Below are positions 15,889 to 53,673 of a DNA stretch of 53,673 bases, in pieces. How positions within the stretch are numbered: position 1 is the first letter of the stretch; every line of letters begins with the position of its first letter. Location: sequence record NC_079183; one strand, written 5' to 3'. The notes under the pieces were generated by a model that saw only the letters and a program-made list of their open reading frames with translations, searched no databases and was not told the origin of the DNA. The DNA comes from Escherichia phage vB_EcoM_SA91KD. The translations under genes were made by a program, and so were the position numbers.

Positions 15889-15895
15889 ATTATTT

Positions 15896-15982
15896 GGACG
15901 AGTAGCTCAGAAGGTCTGCTCCAGAGCTGGTAGAGCAATCTGTTCGACAGATGTGTCGTTGGTTCGAATCCAACCTCGTCCA
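15896..15982 (+). tRNA. tRNA-like element with atypical internal structure (possible pseudo-tRNA or non-canonical tRNA)
   Basis: Canonical 7-bp acceptor stem (GGACGAG / CTCGTCC) and T-arm (GTTGG-TTCGAAT-CCAAC) with discriminator A; the 55 nt between them cannot be folded by eye into standard D and anticodon arms. Anticodon not assignable. Confidence 0.35.
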
Positions 15983-16015
15983 CCCACTTTAATAATTCGC
16001 AATACTGGAGTCCTT

Positions 16016-16164: not shown

Positions 16165-16401
16165 ATGCAACAGCTTAAATCAATAATTCTTGGCGTCCTG
16201 ACTGCATTTGGCATTATCATTGCAGTGTTCCTCAAAGGCAAAAGCTCAGGCAAAGCCGAGGAGCGTCAGGAAGCCACAGAGAAGCAACTAGATTCATTAA
16301 AAGAATCTATCGAGATTAAGTCGCATGTTCAGAAAGAAGTGTCTAGCAGTTCTGATAGCAATGTCGATAGTGAGTTGCTCTCAAAGTGGGTTCGTAAGTG
16401 A
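16165..16401 (+). CDS. Membrane protein with N-terminal TM helix and charged helical periplasmic domain; i-spanin-like (78 aa)
   Basis: TM segment IILGVLTAFGIIIAVFL; aaggtg RBS; the next gene overlaps out of frame. Confidence 0.45.
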   Translation: MQQLKSIILGVLTAFGIIIAVFLKGKSSGKAEERQEATEKQLDSLKESIEIKSHVQKEVSSSSDSNVDSELLSKWVRK

Positions 16402-16534
16402 TTATTGCTTAATTGCACAACCAATCTATTTGGATGTTGCAGAAGTGAAAATATTATCACGCGAAACCAAAACACAGATTTTAGTCCACAATGAAACGTG
16501 GGCACAAAAGTGTTCGAAACTTACCCGACAGTGA
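16325..16534 (+). CDS. Predicted lipoprotein overlapping the 3' end of the preceding gene in another frame; o-spanin-like (69 aa)
   Basis: Signal/lipobox-like MFRKKCLAVLIAMSIVSC. The overlapped architecture is typical of Rz/Rz1. Confidence 0.4.
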   Translation: MFRKKCLAVLIAMSIVSCSQSGFVSDYCLIAQPIYLDVAEVKILSRETKTQILVHNETWAQKCSKLTRQ

Positions 16535-17521
16535 GTGAACAAGACGGACGTCTATAACTTCCCACATGGCCTAGCTAGTTGGTGGTGTAAAAGACTGACC
16601 AAGGTGACGACAGCCAAAGTCGAGGGAGTGCGCGACTTTAAATAACGAGACTCTAGCAACTTGTTGCGATGATGGTGTAAGCCCATGCGTTTGGAAGCAG
16701 GACTCCAACTCAAACAAACCTGCAAGTTGCTCTGGGCATAACAATTGAAATTGCTGCCTCGTATTGAACGCGAGAAAGTTCAGGTAGTCACTTCCTAGAA
16801 CAGTGGCCGGGAACACACCTAGACAAAAGTGCTTGAGAACGTTAGCTCTGTCTTGCCAGCATTAATGGCACGTTGGCCGCGTAAAGGCCACAGCGTCTGA
16901 CCAACGTATCGGTCACTAAATTCAATGGATTCGTAGAGTTAATTAAACCTGCACGATGGGATAGGGATGTAGCATCCGAGGCCGACTGTGTAATTGTGAA
17001 CTTCGCGTTCGCCGAATCCGCCAAATCAATGGGCTAGTGCAAATGTCAGTCACTAGAAGATGTGTTGCAAAACGTCTTCCATGATGTGCAAAGTGTCAGT
17101 CACGTGCCCGCCAATTTACCTCCAACAGTTATGCCTCTGTTCAAAAGGCTCAAGAGAGCGTCTGGCATACCGTAGCGATACGGCTTAGTTGCGCTGATTG
17201 TGTTGTGCAGAAAGAAAGTTCAGGCTTTCGTTTGGGTTACTCCTCATCCCGAAGTTAGCTGGATTCAAAATCCAGACTATGTTCCTATACACATGAAATA
17301 TGCAAGTCGAGGGTTCTTAATGTTCAAACATGATGCGAGCATTAAGCGGGTTTATACTTTTCCCCGATGGTCCCCATAAACAAGTCTGATTCACTTGGGC
17401 GGTTCGAATCAAATTTAATAAGTGTCTTGGCCGCAGTGGAAACATCATTTAAGCCAATGTTTTGTAATGTTCGTAATAGTCCACGTCAGGACACTTACTT
17501 AAATTTTAACTGGAGAGAAAC

Positions 17522-17743
17522 ATGAAAACTGCTGAAATTGCCGAAGAGATTTATAAGGCCGTAATAGCCAGCCAAATCACAAGTGAAGTCCTGCACATGG
17601 ATATTGAAGAAGTTCGCAATGCCTTTGGTGGTTTTGCAATCTTGTCAATAGAAGCTGCGGAAGCACTGACAAACACGTACAATCAACGCGAGTATGAAAA
17701 GCGTTCTGTACTAAATGCGTCATTACAGGCGTCATTAAAATAA
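17522..17743 (+). CDS. Hypothetical protein (73 aa)
   Basis: ggagag RBS then ATG; first gene after the non-coding region. Confidence 0.55.
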   Translation: MKTAEIAEEIYKAVIASQITSEVLHMDIEEVRNAFGGFAILSIEAAEALTNTYNQREYEKRSVLNASLQASLK

Positions 17744-17783
17744 TACCATTATCATGGTGCGGAGCTAATTAATCTCCCACCAT

Positions 17784-18254
17784 ATGAACCGGAGTCCAAC
17801 ATTGACCAAGCTGTCTAAGAAGTTTGTGTTAGACTGTGCTGCAAAAAGGTTTGACCAAATCAATTGGACTTGCAGTGGCAGATATGCGAGAACGGCAATA
17901 TATCTTAGTGGAAGACACTACAGTGTATGTAGGCACGTACTTGTATTCTACATGCACACAGGAAAGGTTGTTGACAAAGTTGACCATATTGATGGAAACA
18001 CCTTCAACGATGTTCCAGGCAATTTGCGGGAAGCAACACAACTTCAAAATTGCCACAACAGAAAGATAAACTCAAACAACTCATCTGGAGTTAAAGGTGT
18101 GCACAAAGATTCCAGAGGGAAATTTGTTGCAAGGTTGCGAGTAGGTAATGGTAAAAGAATTTTCATAGGCAACTTCGATAAACTAGAGGATGCCGAAATA
18201 GCTATCAACAAGGCCAGAACATTTTATCACGGAGAATACGCGAACAATGGCTAA
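17784..18254 (+). CDS. HNH homing endonuclease with AP2-type DNA-binding domain (156 aa)
   Basis: HNH_3-like HIDGNTFNDVPGNLREATQLQNCHN, then AP2-like GVKGVHKDSRGKFVARLRVGNGKRIFIGNF. Confidence 0.7.
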   Translation: MNRSPTLTKLSKKFVLDCAAKRFDQINWTCSGRYARTAIYLSGRHYSVCRHVLVFYMHTGKVVDKVDHIDGNTFNDVPGNLREATQLQNCHNRKINSNNSSGVKGVHKDSRGKFVARLRVGNGKRIFIGNFDKLEDAEIAINKARTFYHGEYANNG

Positions 18255-18906
18255 ACAAATTACTGCCACACTAGTAGATAGTATGGGGAACGACCTTACA
18301 ACGGTCAATGCAGCACGAGTTTCCTATGGTGCGCAATCCTTATCTTTAACAATGCGGGACGAGAAGTTAATTGAGTTTCTTGCAAAGCATAAGCACATTA
18401 CGCCGTTTCGCCACGCACAGGTAACATTGCGTTGTAAAGCTCCAATCTTTATTGCACGTCAGCTTGGCAAACATCAAACTGGCTTTAGCTGGAATGAAGT
18501 TAGTCGTCGATACAAAGATGGTGAAGCAATCGAGGTCGAATTCTTCATTCCAGACACTGTATTTGGTCGTCCTGAAAAGTTGATGACTCAGACTGCACAA
18601 CCGTTGCCACAAGATTTTGCCGATGACATTAAGTACCGTATGGAAGGCCATAACATGGCTTGCATCGCAGAATATGAGATGTTAATTGGTTTGGGGATTG
18701 CTCCAGAGCAAGCTCGCATGGTTCTTCCACAATCCATGATGACTGAATGGATTTGGACTGGCTCACTTTATGGCTGGGCATCTATGTATAATCAACGTTC
18801 CTCCGAACATGCGCAATACGAAGTTCGCTTGTTTGCGGAAGAAGTGAATAAAATCATGTCAGAACTATTCCCAATTTGTTGGAAGGCTCTGACCAACCAG
18901 GAATAA
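18247..18906 (+). CDS. thyX: Flavin-dependent thymidylate synthase ThyX-like (219 aa)
   Basis: Collinear with ThyX (VDSMGNDL...AARVSY...HITPFRHAQVTL.CKAPIFIARQ...SRRY...RSSEHAQYE); the RHR signature reads KHQ here. Confidence 0.7.
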   Translation: MAKQITATLVDSMGNDLTTVNAARVSYGAQSLSLTMRDEKLIEFLAKHKHITPFRHAQVTLRCKAPIFIARQLGKHQTGFSWNEVSRRYKDGEAIEVEFFIPDTVFGRPEKLMTQTAQPLPQDFADDIKYRMEGHNMACIAEYEMLIGLGIAPEQARMVLPQSMMTEWIWTGSLYGWASMYNQRSSEHAQYEVRLFAEEVNKIMSELFPICWKALTNQE

Positions 18907-18910
18907 ATAA

Positions 18911-20674
18911 ATGAACGTCAAGCAATGTGTGGCTAAGATTAAGCACGATGTACCAGACTGTAAATCCACATCTGGCAAGTCTTTACAGGTTTGGTTGAAT
19001 GTCGATGAAGCTGGTAATAAGAACTTCTCTGGTTACTGCTTTGCGTGTGGCGTTCTAGTACCAAATCCTTATGGTAATAATCCGGAGAACATTCCAGAGA
19101 TTAAGGTCAAAACTCCAGAAGAGATTCAGGAAGAAGTTGATGAAATCACTGCTTGTCCCCCGTTTGACTTAACTCATCGCAGCATTGAGCCGGAGTTCTG
19201 GAAAGCTGCTGGTGTTCGACTTCTGTATTCAGAGTATGATGGGAAGACTCCAAATGCTTTGGCGCATGGCTACACCAAAAATGGTAAACTTGTTCGTTGG
19301 AAGATTAAACTTCTGAACAAGAAAGTTATGTGGTCAGTTGGTGACACCCAGGGTAACGACCCTTACAACTGGATGGCTGCAAAAGCAATTGGCGGTAAGA
19401 CACTGTTCATCACAGAAGGTGAAGAAGACTGTATCGCATTGCGTCAAATCCTCAAGACCATGAACCGTGGTGGTGCATACGAAGATTTGGATTTTGCTGT
19501 AATTAGTTTGAGCGATGGGAGTGATTCCGTACACAAATGTCTGTCACCAGTTGCAGAAGAAATTAAGCAACGTTGGGAACAGGTTGTTATCGTATTTGAT
19601 GATGACGAACCTGGACGTAAAGCTGCAAAAGAAGCGTGTCGATTGTTGCCTGGTGCAATGATTGCAACACTTCCAGCTAACGATGCCAACGATTGTTTGA
19701 AGCGTGGCTTGCTCAAAGCTACTCAATCTGCTGTTGTGTTCCGTGCTGCTCGTCCTCTACCTACAGCACTTGTCAACAAAGAGCTTCTTATGGAAGAGCT
19801 TGATGACGAGGTTGAACAGGGTGTGGATTATCCTTGGCCCAAGCTAACCGACTTAATGTTTGGTCAACGTCGAGCCGAAGTTATTACAATCGGTGGTGCA
19901 GAAGGTGGTGGTAAAACTACACTATCCCGTCAGATTGTGCATCACAACATTACCAAGCATGATTGGGGAGTGTTTACTGCATACATGGAGGAAACTCCTA
20001 CAGAAACACTGCGCCGAATGGCTGGCCTCAATGACAACTTGCCATATTGGGAACCTGCGTTTACTCGTGAAGACCCTCGATATGATGAAGCTAAGTTCCG
20101 TCAAACTGCTGCGAAGATGCTTCGTAACATGGAGATTTGGGACCGCAAGCAAGCTGGAGAAGACCCTTATGAAACCTGGGATGGGTTAAAGACGATTCTT
20201 CGTCAGATTGGGCCAGACATTGATATGTTTGTCCTTGATAACTTAACCTACTTATCGGAAGGGATTTCTACCTCAGAGAAGAACGACTTCTTAGGTAAGC
20301 TGTATGCAGATATTACCAAACTGGCAGACCAATACCAGTTCCATGTAAATATTCTGTCGCACCTTAACCCTGTGGCAAAAGGTCAACGACCTCATGAAGA
20401 TGGCGGACGAATCAAGAAGTCAGACTTTACTGGCTCTCGTGCTGCTGCTAAATATTCTCATGGTATGTTCGGCTTTGAGCGTAATAGCCAGGCAGTTGAC
20501 CCAAACTGTTCTATCATTCGTTCCATTAAGGCTCGTAAGAGTGGTAAAACAGAAGGCTTCAAGACGTACTACGACACCGAATCCGGTCGAATCATTCAAC
20601 GTTCTTGGGATGACTCGCTGTTCGAAACTAAAGAGATTGTTCAACTTACTAAGAAGAACGGTCCTCATCAATAA
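18911..20674 (+). CDS. Bifunctional DNA primase-helicase (T7 gp4-like), 587 aa
   Basis: N-terminal Cys4 zinc ribbon, TOPRIM-like EGEEDCIAL, Walker A GGAEGGGKTT. Confidence 0.85.
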   Translation: MNVKQCVAKIKHDVPDCKSTSGKSLQVWLNVDEAGNKNFSGYCFACGVLVPNPYGNNPENIPEIKVKTPEEIQEEVDEITACPPFDLTHRSIEPEFWKAAGVRLLYSEYDGKTPNALAHGYTKNGKLVRWKIKLLNKKVMWSVGDTQGNDPYNWMAAKAIGGKTLFITEGEEDCIALRQILKTMNRGGAYEDLDFAVISLSDGSDSVHKCLSPVAEEIKQRWEQVVIVFDDDEPGRKAAKEACRLLPGAMIATLPANDANDCLKRGLLKATQSAVVFRAARPLPTALVNKELLMEELDDEVEQGVDYPWPKLTDLMFGQRRAEVITIGGAEGGGKTTLSRQIVHHNITKHDWGVFTAYMEETPTETLRRMAGLNDNLPYWEPAFTREDPRYDEAKFRQTAAKMLRNMEIWDRKQAGEDPYETWDGLKTILRQIGPDIDMFVLDNLTYLSEGISTSEKNDFLGKLYADITKLADQYQFHVNILSHLNPVAKGQRPHEDGGRIKKSDFTGSRAAAKYSHGMFGFERNSQAVDPNCSIIRSIKARKSGKTEGFKTYYDTESGRIIQRSWDDSLFETKEIVQLTKKNGPHQ

Positions 20675-20739
20675 CAGAGCTGCTACGCTGCATGGTTCGC
20701 CCACCAGCGTAGCCCTCACCAATCCATTGGAGCCATACT

Positions 20740-22674
20740 GTGTTGTATCCTTGGGAGAACATGTACGCCAGTGACATTGAAACAACTGGCCTGTTGGAGC
20801 AAATGCGTAAGCAAGCTGCACCACGTCTTCACAACATTGGATATATTGATGTTCTAACTCGTGAAGAAACTGTAATAGAGTGGACCGACAGAAAATCTAT
20901 CCAGGCATTTCTGGATACAGGCCCAACGCTAATCATGCACAACGGCGCAACCTTTGACTTTGAAGCACTGAGGTTCCTTGGTTACGACGTTTCAAAATGT
21001 ACCTTAATTGATACTTTGTTTATCAGTTGGTATCTGCAACCTCGTCGTGTTAAGCACGGCTTAGAAGGTTACGGCGAAGAGTTTGGTGTACCAAAACCAG
21101 TCATCGAAGATTGGGAAAATCAAACTCAAGAAGAGTACAACCATCGTGTGATGGAAGACTGCAAGATTCAGTTGAAGCTGTGGGAACAGCAATACATTCA
21201 ACTCTTGAAGATTTATAAATCTCCTAGCGAAGTTAAGCGCTTCGTTGAATACCTGATGACAAAAGCTCGTCAGCAAGTTATTCAGCAACGTACTCGCTGG
21301 AAGTTAAACATTGAGAAGGCATTGGCATTTAAAGCCAAACTGGAGCCAATGATTAAAGAGAAGACGGACGCATTGGAAGCATCAATGCCGCGTGTTCCGG
21401 AATATGTTATCAAGACCCGTCCAGCTAAATGCCACAAAATGAACGGGCAACTGTCTGCCACTGGAATTAAGTGGAAGGCTATTTGTGATGCAAACGGTTT
21501 GGACTGGAAAGACCCAGACCTGGCTATCAAAGTTCTTAAAGGTTATAAGAAGCCTAATGCTGGTTCACATGTTCAAATTAAGGATTGGTTGTTCAGCCTG
21601 GGTTGGGAACCGGAAACCTTTAAGTTTGACCGTAACAAGGAAACAGGTGAAACTCGCCAGATTCCACAAATCACTGTGAAGGATGAAGATGGCAATCCTG
21701 AAATATGTCCGAGCTTGCATAAGCTGGCGGAAAGAAACCCCGACTCTGGTATTCAACATCTTATTGGGATGGGCGTGTATAAACACCGTCTGTCTGTTGT
21801 TAATGGCTTCCTTCGCGACGTCGATGAAGATGGGTTCCTTACTGCACGATGCGGTGGCCTTACCAATACTTTACGCCTTAAGCATCGCGAACTTGTTAAC
21901 CTCCCTTCTATTCGTGTATTTGGCGGTGAAGAACTGCGTTCAATGCTGGAAGCGTGGCGTGAAGACTACGAACAGTTAGGCTCTGATTTGTGTTCTCTGG
22001 AAGACCGATGTAAGCACCACTTCCAGTGGATGTATGACCCTGAATACGTTAAGAAGCAGTTGGCACCAGACTATGATGCTCACCTTGCAATCGGCGTAAT
22101 TGGTGGATTTATTACAGAACAGGAGTCTCAGGACCACAAGGACGGAATTAAGAAGTGTAAACAACGTCCAATGTTTAAGACCACAAACTATGCTTGTCAG
22201 TATGGTGCTGGTATACCAACTGTAGCCCGTTCTGCTGGTTGCGACCAGAATACTGCTGCACGACTGCATAAAGCATATTGGGACTTGAACTGGTCTATTA
22301 AAGAGATTGCTGCAAACACCAAAGTTGTAACAATTGATGGTCAGATGTGGCAACAGAATCCGGTAAACAAATTCTGGTATTCATTGCGTACAGAGAAAGA
22401 CCGATTCTCCACATTGTGTCAGGGTACTGGTGCATATGTGTTTGATATTTGGTGTAACAACATCATTGCAATTTGTAATGAGCGTTGGGGATGTGACCCA
22501 CTTCTGTCCGGGCAATTCCACGACGAATTGATTCTCCAAGTTAAGAAAGGTTTCCGTGATTTGTGGACGGACTTGCTTAATGAGGCAATGGACCGAACCA
22601 ACAAAGAACTTAAACTTAACCGCGATTGTGCATGTGATGTGCAGTTCGGTGATAACTACGCAGAGATTCACTAA
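20740..22674 (+). CDS. Family A DNA polymerase with 3'-5' exonuclease domain (T7 gp5-like), 644 aa
   Basis: Exo I DIETTGL; polymerase motif B KTTNYACQYGAG; motif C QFHDE. GTG start per track; ATG at 20761 possible. Confidence 0.85.
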   Translation: MLYPWENMYASDIETTGLLEQMRKQAAPRLHNIGYIDVLTREETVIEWTDRKSIQAFLDTGPTLIMHNGATFDFEALRFLGYDVSKCTLIDTLFISWYLQPRRVKHGLEGYGEEFGVPKPVIEDWENQTQEEYNHRVMEDCKIQLKLWEQQYIQLLKIYKSPSEVKRFVEYLMTKARQQVIQQRTRWKLNIEKALAFKAKLEPMIKEKTDALEASMPRVPEYVIKTRPAKCHKMNGQLSATGIKWKAICDANGLDWKDPDLAIKVLKGYKKPNAGSHVQIKDWLFSLGWEPETFKFDRNKETGETRQIPQITVKDEDGNPEICPSLHKLAERNPDSGIQHLIGMGVYKHRLSVVNGFLRDVDEDGFLTARCGGLTNTLRLKHRELVNLPSIRVFGGEELRSMLEAWREDYEQLGSDLCSLEDRCKHHFQWMYDPEYVKKQLAPDYDAHLAIGVIGGFITEQESQDHKDGIKKCKQRPMFKTTNYACQYGAGIPTVARSAGCDQNTAARLHKAYWDLNWSIKEIAANTKVVTIDGQMWQQNPVNKFWYSLRTEKDRFSTLCQGTGAYVFDIWCNNIIAICNERWGCDPLLSGQFHDELILQVKKGFRDLWTDLLNEAMDRTNKELKLNRDCACDVQFGDNYAEIH

Positions 22675-26815: not shown

Positions 26816-27409
26816 ATGTCTTGTATGACCCAAGTTGTTGCAGTTAAACGAGTGCATCCTAATGCGAAATTACCTGTGTACGCTACTGCTGGCGCTGCTG
26901 CTGCTGACGTTTGTACTATCTCCGATAGCACTGTTGTTATCAACCCCGGCTGCTCTGTTGCTTTCGATACTGGCCTCCAATTCGAGGTTCCAGTTGGATA
27001 CGAACTCAAAGTACATAGCCGTTCTGGTCATGGCTTTAAGTCTGGCATCCGCTTGGCAAATTGCACAGGAATTCTGGACTCCGATTATCGTGGCAATCTT
27101 ATGGTTAAGCTGCACAACGACTCGGACACAGCCTTTGTGGTTCAGCCAGGTGAACGTATTTGTCAAGTGCAAGTTAGTAAAGCTACTCAACACCATTTCG
27201 TTGAAGTTGACCGCTTGAATGCAACTGGTCGTGGTGAAGGTGGCTTTGGCTCAACTGGTCGTGTGGAGCTTGGTCAGCACGAAAGACCACATATTCCTGA
27301 TGGTTCACACTCGCACAGCATGTCTGTTGTTGGCGAAGGCACAACGGCCTTTGTTTCAGGAACAACTTCAATTGGTGCCCACACTCACGGGGCCGAACGT
27401 TACAAATAA
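26816..27409 (+). CDS. dut: Trimeric dUTPase with about 47-aa His-containing C-terminal extension (197 aa)
   Basis: dUTPase motifs RSGHG, GILDSDYRG, RGEGGFGSTG; then extension ...DGSHSHSMSVV...GAHTHGAERYK. Confidence 0.8.
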   Translation: MSCMTQVVAVKRVHPNAKLPVYATAGAAAADVCTISDSTVVINPGCSVAFDTGLQFEVPVGYELKVHSRSGHGFKSGIRLANCTGILDSDYRGNLMVKLHNDSDTAFVVQPGERICQVQVSKATQHHFVEVDRLNATGRGEGGFGSTGRVELGQHERPHIPDGSHSHSMSVVGEGTTAFVSGTTSIGAHTHGAERYK

Positions 27410-52018: not shown

Positions 52019-52573
52019 ATGCTATCATTCAAAGTCCTTGCAGTTCTGGCAGCTTTAGTTCACATCAACGCCCCAGCTTCGGTTGGGGCAGTGAATTCTG
52101 CTATTACAGATTTTGCAAGTCATTCTTATTTAAATGGAAGTCTGAAACTATCTTCTTCACAACGCAAAGAGCTAGAATGCTATACTAAAGTTATCTGGTA
52201 TGAAGCTCGCGGAGAAGACAAACATGGAAAGATTCTGGTAGCTAATGTCGTCCGTAATAGAACAGAGTTCGGGAAGCCATTCGCTAACACCGTTTGTGAT
52301 GTTGTCTATCAACGCAATCAATTTGCATGGACACGAGAAGCAAAGAAGAAGAATGCCCAATGGAAGCATGTAGCAAAGATTAATTATGCCACAGAACAAC
52401 AACAAGTTCTGGACACCATTAATGTTGCAATCTCTTTTGTACTATTTAATCAACCCTCTGTCACCAAAGCAACCCACTTTTGTACAGCATCGGAGAAGTG
52501 CAACTTCAAGAATGTTAAAGGTTTGGGTCGTTATGGTGGCCATAAATTCTATGAGTATCTAGGAAATCTGTGA
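52019..52573 (+). CDS. Cell-wall hydrolase, SleB / Hydrolase_2 family, with N-terminal signal sequence (184 aa)
   Basis: Signal-like [24 protein letters not shown]; core [24 protein letters not shown]...[17 protein letters not shown]. Confidence 0.7.
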
Positions 52574-53673
52574 TGGCTTACACTACCTTTTCGCAAACCA
52601 AGAATAACCAACTACTAGAGCCAATGTTCTTTGGTCAGAATGTTAACGTTGCTCGATATGACCAACAGAAGTACAGCATCTTCGAGAAGTTAATCGAGAA
52701 GCAGTTATCTTTCTTTTGGCGACCTGAAGAGGTTGATGTTAGCCAGGACCGAATTGACTATGCTGGTCTTCCTGAATGTGAGAAGCACATCTTCACCAGC
52801 AATTTACGATACCAAATCCTGCTTGACTCCATTCAGGGACGCGGGCCAACTACAGTTTTGCTGCCAATTGTGAGCATTCCTGAACTGGAAACTTGGATTG
52901 AAACTTGGTCATTCTCAGAGACAATTCACTCCCGTTCTTACACGCATATTATTCGTAATATCGTGACAGACCCAAGTGTAATTTTCGATGAAATTGTGGA
53001 GAATGAGCACATTAAAATGCGTGCAATTGGCATATCACAATATTATGATGAGCTTCAACATCTAACTTCCATGTGGCATCTGCATGAAGATAAAGTTTCT
53101 CTTCGTGAGCTTAAGAAGAAGCTATATTTATGCCTCATGTCCATTAATGCACTAGAAGCAATCCGCTTTTATGTCAGCTTTGCTTGCTCATTTGCCTTCG
53201 CTGAACGCAAGTTAATGGAAGGAAATGCCAAGATTATTCGCTTAATTGCTCGTGATGAAGCACTCCATTTGACTGGAACTCAGCACATGCTGAACCTTCT
53301 TGCAAGCGGTGTTGATGACCCAGAAATGGCAGAAATTGCTAAAGAATGCCGCCAAGAATGCCAAGAAATGTTCGAAAATGTGGCCCAACAAGAGAAAGAT
53401 TGGGCTGATTATTTGTTCAAAGATGGCTCCATGATAGGCTTAAATAAGCAAATTCTGTGCGGATATGTGGAATATATTACAAATATTCGTATGCAAGCAG
53501 TTGGATTGGATGCTCCATTCAAAGGTGCTACTAACCCGATTCCTTGGATTAACGCATGGTTGAATTCGGATGCTGTACAAGTTGCTCCACAAGAAACGGA
53601 GATTAGTTCGTACCTTGTCGGGCAGATTGATTCCGAAGTTGACACCAATGCTCTGGGCGGATTTGAGCTTTAA
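52570..53673 (+). CDS. nrdB: Ribonucleotide reductase class Ia small subunit NrdB (367 aa)
   Basis: Long stretches match enterobacterial NrdB as I recall it ([109 protein letters not shown]). ORF ends at the last base of the window. Confidence 0.85.

What the first reader, a model, noticed from the sequence alone, without database searches (positions are those of the whole stretch)
17784..18906. HNH-AP2 homing endonuclease next to a ThyX with a substituted phosphate-binding triad
A free-standing HNH-AP2 endonuclease overlaps the start of thyX, a typical homing-endonuclease target neighbourhood. The ThyX is collinear with canonical enzymes, but the RHR signature reads KHQ. That may be tolerated, or may signal altered substrate handling.
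Basis: partly seen in the sequence, partly recalled or inferred. Interest (0 to 1): 0.4.

Follow-up and report, generated by a model that had tools for sequence, protein, structure and literature searches.

The report
Homing endonuclease beside variant phage ThyX
A selfish homing-endonuclease gene has inserted itself just in front of a phage's thymidylate synthase gene, and that enzyme's odd "KHQ" motif is the normal signature of a large, mostly phage-borne and biochemically untested branch of the ThyX family, so the locus is largely ordinary.

Summary
The window is a complete phiEcoM-GJ1-like (Chaseviridae) coliphage genome. It has an HNH-AP2 ORF at 17784-18254, whose likely true start is the TTG at 17802. 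That ORF overlaps a 219-aa ThyX gene (18247-18906) by 8 nt. T. maritima R78-H79-R80 reads K75-H76-Q77 here.

The endonuclease is a mobile, free-standing homing endonuclease gene (HEG).
- A 464-nt segment replaces 8 nt between thyX's Shine-Dalgarno and its second codon.
- Most relatives lack it, and closely similar copies (over 80% aa) occur in only two other phage records, at the same site. Diverged or decayed copies sit there in more distant relatives.
- It is under purifying selection.
- All HEG-bearing alleles change thyX codons 10-12, which looks like an immunised target site.

KHQ is neither a one-off nor decay. All 120 closest homologues have K-H-(Q/S/A). About 150 diverse representative clusters share K-[H/Y/S]-x...S-R-R-Y. 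These also lack canonical E58 and R165 but keep the dUMP and catalytic residues. thyX has dN/dS of about 0.13 and passes the NCBIfam thyX equivalog cut-off. A Dependentiae chromosome carries a member of this subfamily.

The enzyme is most likely an ordinary thymidylate synthase with a remodelled flavin-phosphate pocket. No member of the subfamily has a solved structure or a published assay that I could find. Interest is low to moderate.

The parts
17754..17783 (+). Conserved intergenic hairpin (ATGGTGcGGAG / loop CTAATTAAT / CTCC-CACCAT) directly upstream. It is part of the backbone, not of the insert.
   Evidence: The sequence was read directly. It is identical or nearly so in HEG-plus and HEG-minus relatives. 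The fold is -14.9 kcal/mol with z of only -1.3. Its function is unknown.
17791..17794 (+). GGAG Shine-Dalgarno that serves thyX in HEG-free relatives. Here it lies 7 nt before the endonuclease's TTG start.
   Evidence: HEG-free genomes read CGGAGAGCAAATG-ATTACT. The ST32 paper lists 'CGGAGAGcaaATG' as the thymidylate synthase ribosome-binding site (PMC6266442). Window sequence.
17795..18258 (+). The inserted mobile segment: 464 nt that replace the 8 nt AGCAAATG of HEG-free genomes, a net gain of 456 nt.
   Evidence: Alignment A1. Anchor-to-anchor distance is 559 nt here against 103 nt in HEG-free relatives.
17784..18254 (+). The likely true start is the TTG at 17802 (150 aa).
   Evidence: The TTG start is used or annotated in Pel53, BSBP01 and L020. 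dN/dS is 0.05-0.09 between four copies.
17931..18050 (+). HNH (beta-beta-alpha-metal) nuclease motif, residues 50-89 of the 156-aa ORF. It includes D67-H68, N80 and N89.
   Evidence: Pfam HNH_3. In the alignment to I-HmuI 1u3e, VDHIDGN...NLR...QN pairs with VDHKDGN...NLR...IN. The assignment of catalytic roles to D74/H75/N87/N96 of I-HmuI is from my own knowledge.
18090..18233 (+). AP2-type DNA-binding domain, residues 103-150.
   Evidence: AtERF1 AP2 domain 2gcc/1gcc, E 1.4e-3. BLASTP gives 40% identity. Pfam's AP2 model itself gives no hit.
18247..18906 (+). thyX, flavin-dependent thymidylate synthase of the K-H-x...S-R-R-Y subfamily. Its start codon is supplied by the insert and overlaps the endonuclease stop (ATGGCTAA).
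   Evidence: AF2 model has pLDDT 86.4 and TM 0.77-0.79 to T. maritima ThyX.
18274..18282 (+). GTAGATAGT (V10-D11-S12 of ThyX). This tract is altered in every HEG-bearing allele. It is the candidate immunised recognition or cleavage site, where HEG-free alleles read GTTGACCAC.
   Evidence: The His codon is present in 5 of 6 HEG-free alleles and in 0 of 8 HEG-bearing ones (Fisher p = 0.003, alleles not phylogenetically independent).
18469..18477 (+). K75-H76-Q77, in place of the canonical R78-H79-R80 (T. maritima numbering).
18502..18513 (+). S86-R87-R88-Y89. The canonical form is S88-G89-R90-Y91. R87 is the subfamily-specific extra arginine.

Best explanation
There are two separate things here, both of known kinds.

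1. A free-standing HNH-AP2 homing endonuclease gene.
- It sits in the 8 nt between the thyX ribosome-binding site and thyX codon 2 of a phiEcoM-GJ1-like phage.
- It is translated from the Shine-Dalgarno that used to serve thyX.
- It hands thyX a new start codon that overlaps its own stop, so thyX is probably translated by coupling.
- In a mixed infection, the enzyme is inferred to cut or nick the HEG-free thyX 5' end, around GTTGACCACATGGG, 20-30 nt downstream of the insertion point.
- Recombinational repair from the HEG-bearing genome would then copy in the gene plus a short flanking tract.
- The carrier is protected because that tract reads GTAGATAGT.

2. A functional flavin-dependent thymidylate synthase of a large, mostly phage-borne subfamily.
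- Together with the phage dUTPase and ribonucleotide reductase subunit, it supplies dTMP.
- In this subfamily the flavin and nucleotide phosphate pocket is rebuilt.
- R78 is Lys, which can still face flavin N1/C2=O.
- R80, R165 and E58 are not conserved.
- A new invariant Arg next to the catalytic Ser (S-R-R-Y) probably supplies the missing charge.

Shown: the anatomy, the presence/absence polymorphism, the selection, and the subfamily-wide conservation. Inferred: cleavage and homing, the exact target, translational coupling, the compensating role of R87, and enzyme activity.
For: Endonuclease:
- The domains are present.
- The gene is absent from flopper, GJ1, TH24 and 2KOFFS, with junctions precise to the nucleotide.
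- Copies above 80% aa identity occur in only 2 of 50,697 phage records, both at this same site. Paralogues at about 40% identity lie at other intergenic sites and in T5-like phages.
- More divergent or frameshifted copies sit at the same site in distant Chaseviridae (L018, L022, L024). That pattern fits a cycle of invasion and decay.
- dN/dS is 0.05-0.09.
- Between this window and Pel53, HEG dS is 0.18 against thyX dS of 0.82.
- Identity to Pel53 holds through the HEG and about 50 nt into thyX, then the sequence switches to TH24-like.
- Altered thyX codons 10-12 are associated with HEG presence.
- N-terminal HNH plus C-terminal AP2 is a described HEG family, and HEGs mark recombination boundaries in phages (PMC10448857).

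ThyX:
- It passes the Pfam and NCBIfam equivalog cut-offs.
- The fold is a ThyX fold.
- All 120 closest homologues have K-H-(Q/S/A) (116 of 118 by pattern match, plus 2 A-to-V variants that are KHQ by eye).
- Of 150 representatives, 130 have K and 17 have R at position 78. Only 6 have R at position 80. 136 have R at position 89. Only 2 have R or K at position 165.
- The same signature appears in phiEco32, N4-like Kc283, and Vibrio, Pseudomonas, Rheinheimera, Bacillus and Streptomyces phages.
- H53, R74, Q75, E86, S88, R90, Y91, E144, R147 and R174 are retained.
- Median dN/dS is 0.13.
- dUTPase and the RNR small subunit are in the same genome.
- No hypermodification genes are annotated in the relative Mangalitsa.
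- A Dependentiae contig carries a subfamily member between MscS, RecD2 and M48 peptidase genes.

Literature:
- The RHR motif, together with R165 in H. pylori numbering, hydrogen-bonds the FAD phosphates and ribityl (PMC6514825).
- R78 faces flavin N1/C2=O (PMC11940539).
- Residue 89 of PBCV-1 ThyX can occupy the dUMP phosphate pocket (PMC3498832).
Against: - No cleavage, homing or enzyme assay exists for this protein, or for any member of the subfamily that I could find.
- The canonical defining motif RHRX7S is not met.
- Two FAD-phosphate ligands are missing, so normal FAD binding is not guaranteed.
- One HEG-free allele (L017) carries the 'protected' tract, so the association is not absolute.
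- The alleles compared are phylogenetically related, so the Fisher p-value overstates the evidence.
- The Shine-Dalgarno candidate for thyX inside the insert (GGAG, 18231-18234) is 12 nt from the ATG, so thyX expression may be reduced.
- The compensating role of R87 rests on sequence covariation and one remark in the literature.
- One representative (P0207) has RHR, E58, R165 and also S-R-R-Y, so R89 is not strictly tied to loss of R80.
Confidence: 0.75

Rival explanations
1. The K-H-x...S-R-R-Y ThyX proteins are a neofunctionalised subfamily. The rebuilt phosphate pocket would reflect one of three things:
- a different flavin-binding mode (for example FMN, or loosely bound and exchangeable flavin);
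- a different nucleotide substrate (UMP, dCMP, or a di- or triphosphate);
- a different product (for example 5-hydroxymethyl-dUMP).

On this reading the phage enzyme is not a plain thymidylate synthase.
For: - Several residues invariant in canonical ThyX are lost together: R80, R165, E58, R143 and R25 in T. maritima numbering.
- Even H79 varies (H, Y or S) across the subfamily.
- No structure or assay exists for the subfamily.
- A ThyX homologue with altered substrate range is known (PolB, 4p5a, a UMP/dUMP methylase, from my own knowledge). 5-hmdUMP is an acid-trapped ThyX intermediate (PMC3498832).
Against: - The residues that contact the uracil, the deoxyribose phosphate and the folate are all kept: S88, R90, Y91, R147, R174, Q75, E86, H53 and E144.
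- PolB itself keeps RHR, so loss of RHR is not the known route to a new substrate.
- The genome encodes a dUTPase that makes dUMP.
- No base-modification genes are annotated in relatives.
- A reduced-genome bacterium keeps a member among housekeeping genes.
Confidence: 0.15
2. The HNH-AP2 protein is no longer, or never was, a homing endonuclease. It would be a domesticated DNA-binding or nicking protein with a role in the phage's own replication, recombination or gene regulation, and it merely happens to lie upstream of thyX.
For: - Purifying selection is strong (dN/dS 0.05-0.09). Selection of that strength is not expected for a selfish gene once it is fixed.
- AP2 domains have been co-opted as regulators elsewhere (PMC10448857).
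- No cleavage data exist.
Against: - It is absent from most close relatives, which are viable phages.
- Frameshifted or truncated copies occur at the same site in other lineages.
- It is far more similar between genomes than the flanking thyX is.
- It is accompanied by a donor-like flanking tract and by target-site substitutions.
- The catalytic HNH residues are intact.
Confidence: 0.07
3. The thyX gene is decaying. KHQ would be a loss-of-function lesion tolerated because E. coli supplies ThyA.
For: - The host has thyA (my own knowledge).
- The canonical motif is not met.
- Insertion of the HEG removed thyX's original start and ribosome-binding arrangement.
Against: - The same motif is kept in all 120 closest homologues and in about 150 diverse clusters.
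- Median dN/dS is 0.13 over pairs with dS up to above 1.
- The ORF is full length and intact in every genome examined.
- The model is a confident ThyX fold.
Confidence: 0.03

Closest known systems
Canonical ThyX / flavin-dependent thymidylate synthase (T. maritima TM0449, PBCV-1 A674R, M. tuberculosis and H. pylori ThyX; Pfam PF02511, NCBIfam TIGR02170)
   Same: - Same fold: TM 0.77-0.79, collinear over about 210 residues.
- Same length class.
- Scores above the family cut-offs.
- Retains H53, R74, Q75, E86, S88, R90, Y91, E144, R147 and R174.
- Same genomic logic: a dTMP supply gene next to the replication genes.
   Different: - RHRX7S reads KHQX8S.
- R165 is Y, E58 is R, R143 is P and R25 is N.
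- There is an extra Arg at position 89.
- Every solved ThyX whose sequence I inspected (T. maritima, T. thermophilus, PolB, PBCV-1), and M. tuberculosis and H. pylori according to the review, has RHR.
Phage ThyX of the same K-[H/Y/S]-x...S-R-R-Y subfamily (phiEco32 gp64, N4-like Kosakonia phage Kc283, Vibrio phage 11895-B1, Rheinheimera Barba phages, Bacillus phage Blastoid, Streptomyces phage Larnav)
   Same: They share the signature K78, a non-Arg residue at 80, S-R-R-Y, A-P-E-Q-A-R and W-x-W-T-G-S-L. Identity to the window protein is 34-55%.
   Different: The window protein belongs to the Chaseviridae branch, which has Q at position 80. Others have K, V or T there, and Y or S in place of the His. 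Here the gene has also acquired a new start codon from the HEG.
Free-standing HNH-AP2 homing endonucleases of phages (PHROG 99; the HNH-AP2 family of Magnani et al. 2004 as cited in PMC10448857; HNH genes of T5-like phages; the other HNH genes of phiEcoM-GJ1)
   Same: - N-terminal HNH_3 plus C-terminal AP2.
- About 150 aa.
- Intergenic position between replication and nucleotide-metabolism genes.
- Patchy distribution among close relatives.
   Different: - Only about 40% identical to the nearest paralogues.
- The insertion site is different: between the thyX Shine-Dalgarno and its start codon.
- It takes over that Shine-Dalgarno and supplies thyX with a new start.
I-HmuI (1u3e), the intron-encoded HNH nicking endonuclease of Bacillus phage SPO1
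   Same: The HNH core aligns, with the Asp-His, Asn and Asn positions conserved.
   Different: I-HmuI is intron-encoded and has a different DNA-binding region with no AP2 domain. The match is weak (E 0.057).

Membership tests
ThyX / flavin-dependent thymidylate synthase | Scores above the curated cut-offs of the family models (Pfam PF02511 Thy1; NCBIfam TIGR02170 thyX equivalog) | tested here: met
   Pfam gives 144.7 bits against a cut-off of 24.8. NCBIfam gives 131.4 bits against 87.9.
ThyX / flavin-dependent thymidylate synthase | ThyX motif RHRX7S (Myllykallio 2002, as applied in PMC2826268) | tested here: not met
   The sequence reads K75-H76-Q77-X8-S86. Two of the three motif residues differ, and the spacing is one residue longer.
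ThyX / flavin-dependent thymidylate synthase | Substrate and catalytic residues S88, R90, Y91, R147 and R174, plus H53 and E144 on the folate side (T. maritima numbering) | tested here: met
   All are present: S86, R88, Y89, R157, R184, H50 and E154. They are conserved in the 120 closest homologues and in at least 142 of 150 representatives.
ThyX / flavin-dependent thymidylate synthase | Arginines that hydrogen-bond the FAD phosphates and ribityl (R78, R80 and R165; PMC6514825) | tested here: not met
   R78 is K, R80 is Q and R165 is Y.
ThyX / flavin-dependent thymidylate synthase | ThyX fold | tested here: met
   The AF2 model has pLDDT 86.4 and pTM 0.81. The top 50 PDB matches are all T. maritima ThyX, with TM 0.74-0.80.
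ThyX / flavin-dependent thymidylate synthase | Homotetramer with bound FAD that converts dUMP, CH2H4folate and NAD(P)H to dTMP, and complements thyA | not testable with these tools
   This needs expression, flavin analysis, an enzyme assay and genetic complementation.
Free-standing HNH-AP2 homing endonuclease | HNH (His-Me finger) nuclease motif with the catalytic His and metal-ligand Asn/Asp intact | tested here: met
   Pfam HNH_3, E 2.4e-9. D67-H68, N80 and N89 align with the I-HmuI motif.
Free-standing HNH-AP2 homing endonuclease | C-terminal AP2 DNA-binding domain | tested here: met
   AtERF1 AP2 domain, E 1.4e-3. BLASTP gives 40% identity. This is a weak match, and Pfam's AP2 model gives no hit.
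Free-standing HNH-AP2 homing endonuclease | Own ORF between genes, not inside an intron or intein | tested here: met
   The ORF lies between the 73-aa gene (17522-17743) and thyX. thyX is uninterrupted.
Free-standing HNH-AP2 homing endonuclease | Presence/absence polymorphism at one precise site among close relatives | tested here: met
   It is present in Pel53, BSBP01 and L020 and absent in flopper, GJ1, TH24 and 2KOFFS, with identical flanks. Decayed copies are present in L018, L022 and L024.
Free-standing HNH-AP2 homing endonuclease | Target sequence in HEG-free alleles that is altered in HEG-bearing alleles, with co-conversion of flanking markers | tested here: inconclusive
   - thyX codons 10-12 differ in all 8 HEG-bearing alleles. 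The His codon is present in 5 of 6 HEG-free alleles.
- A donor-like tract of about 50 nt follows the insert.
- This is suggestive, but there is one exception (L017) and the cleavage site is unmapped.
Free-standing HNH-AP2 homing endonuclease | Site-specific cleavage and super-Mendelian inheritance in mixed infection | not testable with these tools
   This needs in vitro cleavage mapping and phage crosses.

The most novel reading that the evidence does not exclude
The K-[H/Y/S]-x...S-R-R-Y proteins may be a distinct, phage-dominated class of ThyX. The class is not described in the literature I could search, and no member has a solved structure.

All its members lack the family's defining RHR motif and the second FAD-phosphate arginine (R165). 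They may therefore hold the flavin in a different way: a different ADP-moiety pocket, FMN in place of FAD, or an exchangeable flavin. R89 would take over phosphate binding.

If so, the textbook 'ThyX motif' describes only one branch of the family, and motif-based filters such as the one used in PMC2826268 would have excluded much of viral ThyX diversity.
Probability: 0.25. Interest if true: 0.5.

Novelty: new member of a known kind. Interest (0 to 1): 0.3.

Why it matters
For the phage itself this is routine biology: a selfish endonuclease riding beside a nucleotide-metabolism gene.

Two points have some wider use.

1. The locus is a clean natural example of how a free-standing HEG can insert between a gene's ribosome-binding site and its start codon without killing the gene.
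- It takes over the Shine-Dalgarno.
- It hands back a start codon by stop-start overlap.
- The locus offers a precise, testable candidate target, GTTGACCAC against GTAGATAGT.

2. The 'aberrant' KHQ motif points to a large ThyX subfamily.
- It is found in many phage lineages and in some Dependentiae genomes.
- It departs from the motif used to define and filter ThyX sequences.
- It lacks two of the arginines that hold FAD in every solved structure I inspected.

ThyX is studied as an antibacterial target and as an unusual flavin-mediated methyl-transfer enzyme. A structure or assay of one member would show how much of the 'essential' pocket is really dispensable.

Tried and rejected
- **E58R compensating for the loss of R80** (T-P-F-R-H here against T-P-F-E-H). 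Rejected. That position is variable across the subfamily (A47, R31, G17, S16, F15...), whereas R87 is nearly invariant.
- **KHQ as a private mutation of this phage.** Rejected.
- **Pfam AP2 model on the endonuclease.** No hit even at E<=10. The AP2 assignment rests on the PDB and BLASTP matches.
- **Sigma-70 promoter and intrinsic terminator scan of 16300-19000.** Nothing on the + strand and fewer sites than in shuffles. The phage has its own T7-like RNA polymerase.
- **Rfam over the whole window.** Only the tRNA.
- **Repeats in the 1-kb gene-poor stretch.** Only short two-copy matches.
- **Upstream hairpin.** Fold z of -1.3, not significant.
- **Literature searches for the variant motif or for assays of phage ThyX of this type.** Nothing found. 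Ulmer 2008, Koehn 2012 and Mishanina 2014 are not held.
- **Cluster look-up of ten representative homologues for source names.** All are unnamed metagenomic sequences.
- **Initial classification of L024 as HEG-free.** Corrected after tblastn showed a frameshifted HEG upstream.
- **Structure prediction.** It confirms the fold but gives no coordinates, so the position of R87 relative to the phosphate pocket could not be measured.
Full report
**What the window is.** The 53,673-base window is a complete genome of a phiEcoM-GJ1-like myovirus (Chaseviridae, Cleopatravirinae, Carltongylesvirus-like).
- Region 17000-21000 matches 65 phage records, 40 of them over at least 80% of its length at about 90-96% identity. 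Most are Escherichia, Yersinia and Erwinia phages.
- The genome encodes a T7-like RNA polymerase (749-2602), a primase/helicase (18911-20674), a family A DNA polymerase, a 5'-3' exonuclease, a ligase, a dUTPase (26816-27409) and a ribonucleotide reductase small subunit (52570-53673).

**Checking the observation.** Both ORFs exist as described.
- ORF 17784-18254 has a Pfam HNH_3 domain and matches PHROG 99.
- Its C-terminal 48 residues match the solved AP2 domain of AtERF1 (E 1.4e-3; 40% identity). Pfam's own AP2 model does not fire.
- The HNH core aligns with I-HmuI, with the Asp-His, Asn and Asn positions in register.
- ORF 18247-18906 is a full-length ThyX: Pfam Thy1 E 3.8e-42, NCBIfam thyX equivalog 131 bits against a cut-off of 88, T. 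maritima ThyX E 5.5e-30.
- The two ORFs overlap by 8 nt, ATGGCTAA.
- In the HMMER alignment to T. maritima ThyX, FRHRIA-SYNELSGRY pairs with GKHQTGFSWNEVSRRY. The spacer is also one residue longer, and G89 is replaced by Arg.

**The endonuclease is an inserted mobile element.**
- Alignment with relatives shows that flopper, GJ1, TH24 and 2KOFFS read ...ATGAACCGGAG-AGCAAATG-ATTACTGC... The window, Pel53 and BSBP01 carry about 460 nt in place of the 8 nt AGCAAATG.
- GGAG is the thyX Shine-Dalgarno in HEG-free phages. The ST32 paper lists CGGAGAGcaaATG as the thymidylate synthase ribosome-binding site (PMC6266442).
- The element therefore sits exactly between that ribosome-binding site and thyX codon 2.
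- The ATG at 17784 that opens the ORF belongs to the conserved backbone and has no Shine-Dalgarno.
- The in-frame TTG at 17802 lies 7 nt after GGAG. It is the start of the intact 150-aa ORFs in BSBP01 and L020 and of the Pel53 annotation.
- So the endonuclease most likely uses thyX's old Shine-Dalgarno.
- thyX now starts at an ATG supplied by the insert. That ATG overlaps the endonuclease stop, which suggests translational coupling. The nearest GGAG is 12 nt upstream.
- The new ThyX N-terminus is MAKQ-ITATL, against M-ITATL in HEG-free coliphages.

**Evidence of mobility.**
- Copies with more than 80% amino-acid identity exist in only two of 50,697 phage records (Pel53, BSBP01), both at this site.
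- About 40%-identical paralogues lie at other intergenic positions of Chaseviridae. Examples are between thyX and the primase in GJ1 and PYps3T, and in T5-like phages.
- Metagenomic relatives add an intact copy (L020).
- In a more distant Chaseviridae branch there are truncated or frameshifted copies at the same site (L018, L022, L024). That is the pattern expected from cycles of invasion and decay.
- The four intact copies are under strong purifying selection (dN/dS 0.05-0.09).
- Between the window and Pel53 the HEG has dS 0.18, while the adjacent thyX has dS 0.82.
- A sliding identity profile shows the window is Pel53-like through the HEG and about 50 nt into thyX, then TH24-like, then flopper-like. 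That amounts to a short donor tract and a recombination mosaic.

**A candidate target site.**
- Every allele with an upstream HEG, intact or decayed, differs from HEG-free alleles at thyX codons 10-12.
- HEG-free alleles read GT(T/C/A) GAC CA(C/T).
- HEG-bearing alleles read GTA GAT AGT, GTA GAT TCA, GTA GA(T/C) AG(C/T) or GTT GAC AAG.
- The His codon is present in 5 of 6 HEG-free alleles and in 0 of 8 HEG-bearing alleles (Fisher p = 0.003). The alleles are related, so this is indicative only. Three different replacement codon families do point to repeated change.
- One HEG-free allele (L017) carries the window's tract, which is compatible with HEG loss or recombination.
- I infer that the enzyme recognises or cuts around GTTGACCACATGGG, 20-30 nt from the insertion point, and that the carrier is immune.
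- N-terminal HNH plus C-terminal AP2 is an already described HEG family, and HEGs are known to sit at recombination boundaries in phages (PMC10448857).

**KHQ is a subfamily signature, not a lesion.**
- Among the 120 closest database homologues (67-91% identity, all Chaseviridae), the pattern search found KHQ in 116, KHS in one and KHA in one. The two sequences it missed also read KHQ.
- A profile-free search of 1.84 billion cluster representatives gave 453 proteins at E<=1e-30. The best 150, at 40-58% identity, nearly all read K-H-x...S-R-R-Y.
- Mapping them onto the query gives: position 78 K130/R17; position 80 Q76, K23, T16, V8, R6; position 89 R136; position 165 R or K in only 2; position 58 never Glu.
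- The seven canonical sequences I compared are T. maritima, T. thermophilus, Thermus phage P74-26, mycobacteriophage Dandelion, cyanophage S-SSM7, PolB and PBCV-1. All have R78, H79, R80 and E58, and G, A or Q at position 89.
- Named phages with the variant signature include phiEco32, Pseudomonas phage HHBS10_2, Vibrio phage 11895-B1, Rheinheimera Barba8A, N4-like Kc283, Bacillus phage Blastoid (K-Y-V) and Streptomyces phage Larnav (K-Y-T).
- Other subfamily-specific changes are R25 to N, R143 to P (A-P-E-Q-A-R) and a W-x-W-T-G-S-L block.

**What the changed residues do in canonical enzymes.**
- The RHR motif hydrogen-bonds the AMP phosphate, the ribityl and the FMN phosphate of FAD.
- The first Arg also contacts the isoalloxazine and dUMP.
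- A further Arg from the neighbouring subunit (M. tuberculosis R190, H. pylori R165) also binds these groups (PMC6514825).
- By numbering offsets, that residue is T. maritima R165, which is Y175 here.
- R78 points at flavin N1/C2=O and stabilises the reduced flavin (PMC11940539). A Lys could do the same.
- R78, R80, S88 and R90 are listed as dUMP hydrogen-bond partners. In PBCV-1 ThyX the side chain of residue 89 can occupy the dUMP phosphate pocket (PMC3498832).
- That makes the subfamily-specific R89 (R87 here) the obvious candidate to replace lost charge. This is an inference from sequence and literature, not from coordinates.

**Is the enzyme functional?**
- The residues for uracil, sugar-phosphate and folate handling are all kept: H53, R74, Q75, E86, S88, R90, Y91, E144, R147 and R174.
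- thyX evolves under purifying selection, with median pairwise dN/dS of 0.13 over 65 pairs.
- An AlphaFold2 model (pLDDT 86.4) superposes on T. maritima ThyX at TM 0.77-0.79. Confidence is lowest in the motif loop.
- The genome supplies dUMP through a standard dUTPase.
- A well-annotated relative, Mangalitsa, shows no base-hypermodification genes.
- A scan of 185,579 species genomes with a subfamily-specific peptide pattern found only 108 stretches, mostly in MAG contigs or prophage-like settings. The subfamily is therefore essentially phage-borne.
- All 59 loci in which the motif could be read are of the variant type.
- In a 103-kb Candidatus Dependentiae contig, however, the gene lies between an MscS channel, a RecD2 helicase and an M48 peptidase. 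That context suggests it serves as a cellular thymidylate synthase there.
- I found no assay or structure for any member.

**Comparison with what is known, and verdict.**
- The endonuclease is a new member of the known HNH-AP2 free-standing HEG family, at a new site. It has a neat arrangement: it takes over a Shine-Dalgarno and donates a start codon.
- The ThyX is a member of the ThyX family by model scores, fold and catalytic residues. It fails the historical RHRX7S motif and lacks two FAD-phosphate arginines.
- It belongs to a large, coherent subfamily that I did not find described in the literature I could search.
- The most likely reading (0.75) is an ordinary mobile element beside a functional thymidylate synthase with a rebuilt phosphate pocket.
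- A neofunctionalised or differently cofactored enzyme remains possible (0.15).
- Interest is low to moderate. The HEG is routine. The subfamily-level departure from the 'defining' ThyX motif is the only part a specialist might want to follow up.

Noticed in passing
window 15895-15986 (+): ARAGORN calls a 92-nt tRNA-Ser (anticodon gct), and Rfam confirms a tRNA (45.6 bits). Relatives annotate the homologous gene as tRNA-Arg. Its identity and the extra length are unresolved.
   Followed up: partly
window about 16540-17520: This is roughly 1 kb without long ORFs, between the spanin genes and the 73-aa gene. It is left unannotated in flopper and ST32 but filled with small ORFs in 2KOFFS and BSBP01. 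There is no Rfam hit, only short two-copy repeats, and no sigma-70 promoter or terminator signal.
   Followed up: partly
window 17754-17783 (+): A conserved hairpin with a 10-bp stem (ATGGTGcGGAG...CTCC-CACCAT) abuts the upstream ATG and is present in all relatives. The fold z-score is only -1.3, so its significance is unclear. It could be a phage RNA polymerase terminator or a processing site.
   Followed up: partly
window 18300-18700 (inside thyX): thyX is a recombination mosaic. Identity to Pel53 drops to 0.47-0.70 inside the gene while the flanks are 0.95-1.00. The best-matching relative changes along the gene, from Pel53 to TH24 to flopper.
   Followed up: partly
proteins P0124, P0198, P0269 (metagenomic ThyX homologues): These variant-type ThyX proteins are interrupted by inteins that carry HNH endonuclease domains. 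In P0124 the intein's C-terminal junction lies just before the S-W-N-E part of the ThyX motif; the sites in P0198 and P0269 were not mapped as closely. thyX is thus targeted by selfish elements at the protein level too.
   Followed up: partly
L056 4001-4642 (Candidatus Dependentiae contig JAUPTZ010000005.1, 103 kb): A variant-type thyX (K-S-T...S-R-R-Y) sits in a chromosomal context, flanked by an MscS-domain protein, a RecD2 helicase and an M48 peptidase. Several other Dependentiae/TM6 MAGs also have this type. Whether these genomes lack thyA was not checked.
   Followed up: partly
L001 (PP952070.1, 'Staphylococcus phage Pel53'): This record is labelled with host Staphylococcus hyicus. It is nevertheless 90.8% identical over the whole query region (17000-21000) to this coliphage-type genome and is classified in Chaseviridae. 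The host label looks doubtful.
   Followed up: no
L003 2970-3413 and 5238-5723 (phiEcoM-GJ1); L017 1153-1596: Other HNH genes occupy the next two intergenic gaps of the replication module in some relatives: between thyX and the primase, and between the primase and the DNA polymerase. These gaps are empty in the window. The whole module is a landing strip for HEGs.
   Followed up: partly
L021 918-1208: In one distant relative, a 96-aa gene unrelated to the HEG overlaps the thyX start by 8 nt, in the same manner as the HEG does here. It has no Pfam hit and no similarity to the HEG.
   Followed up: no
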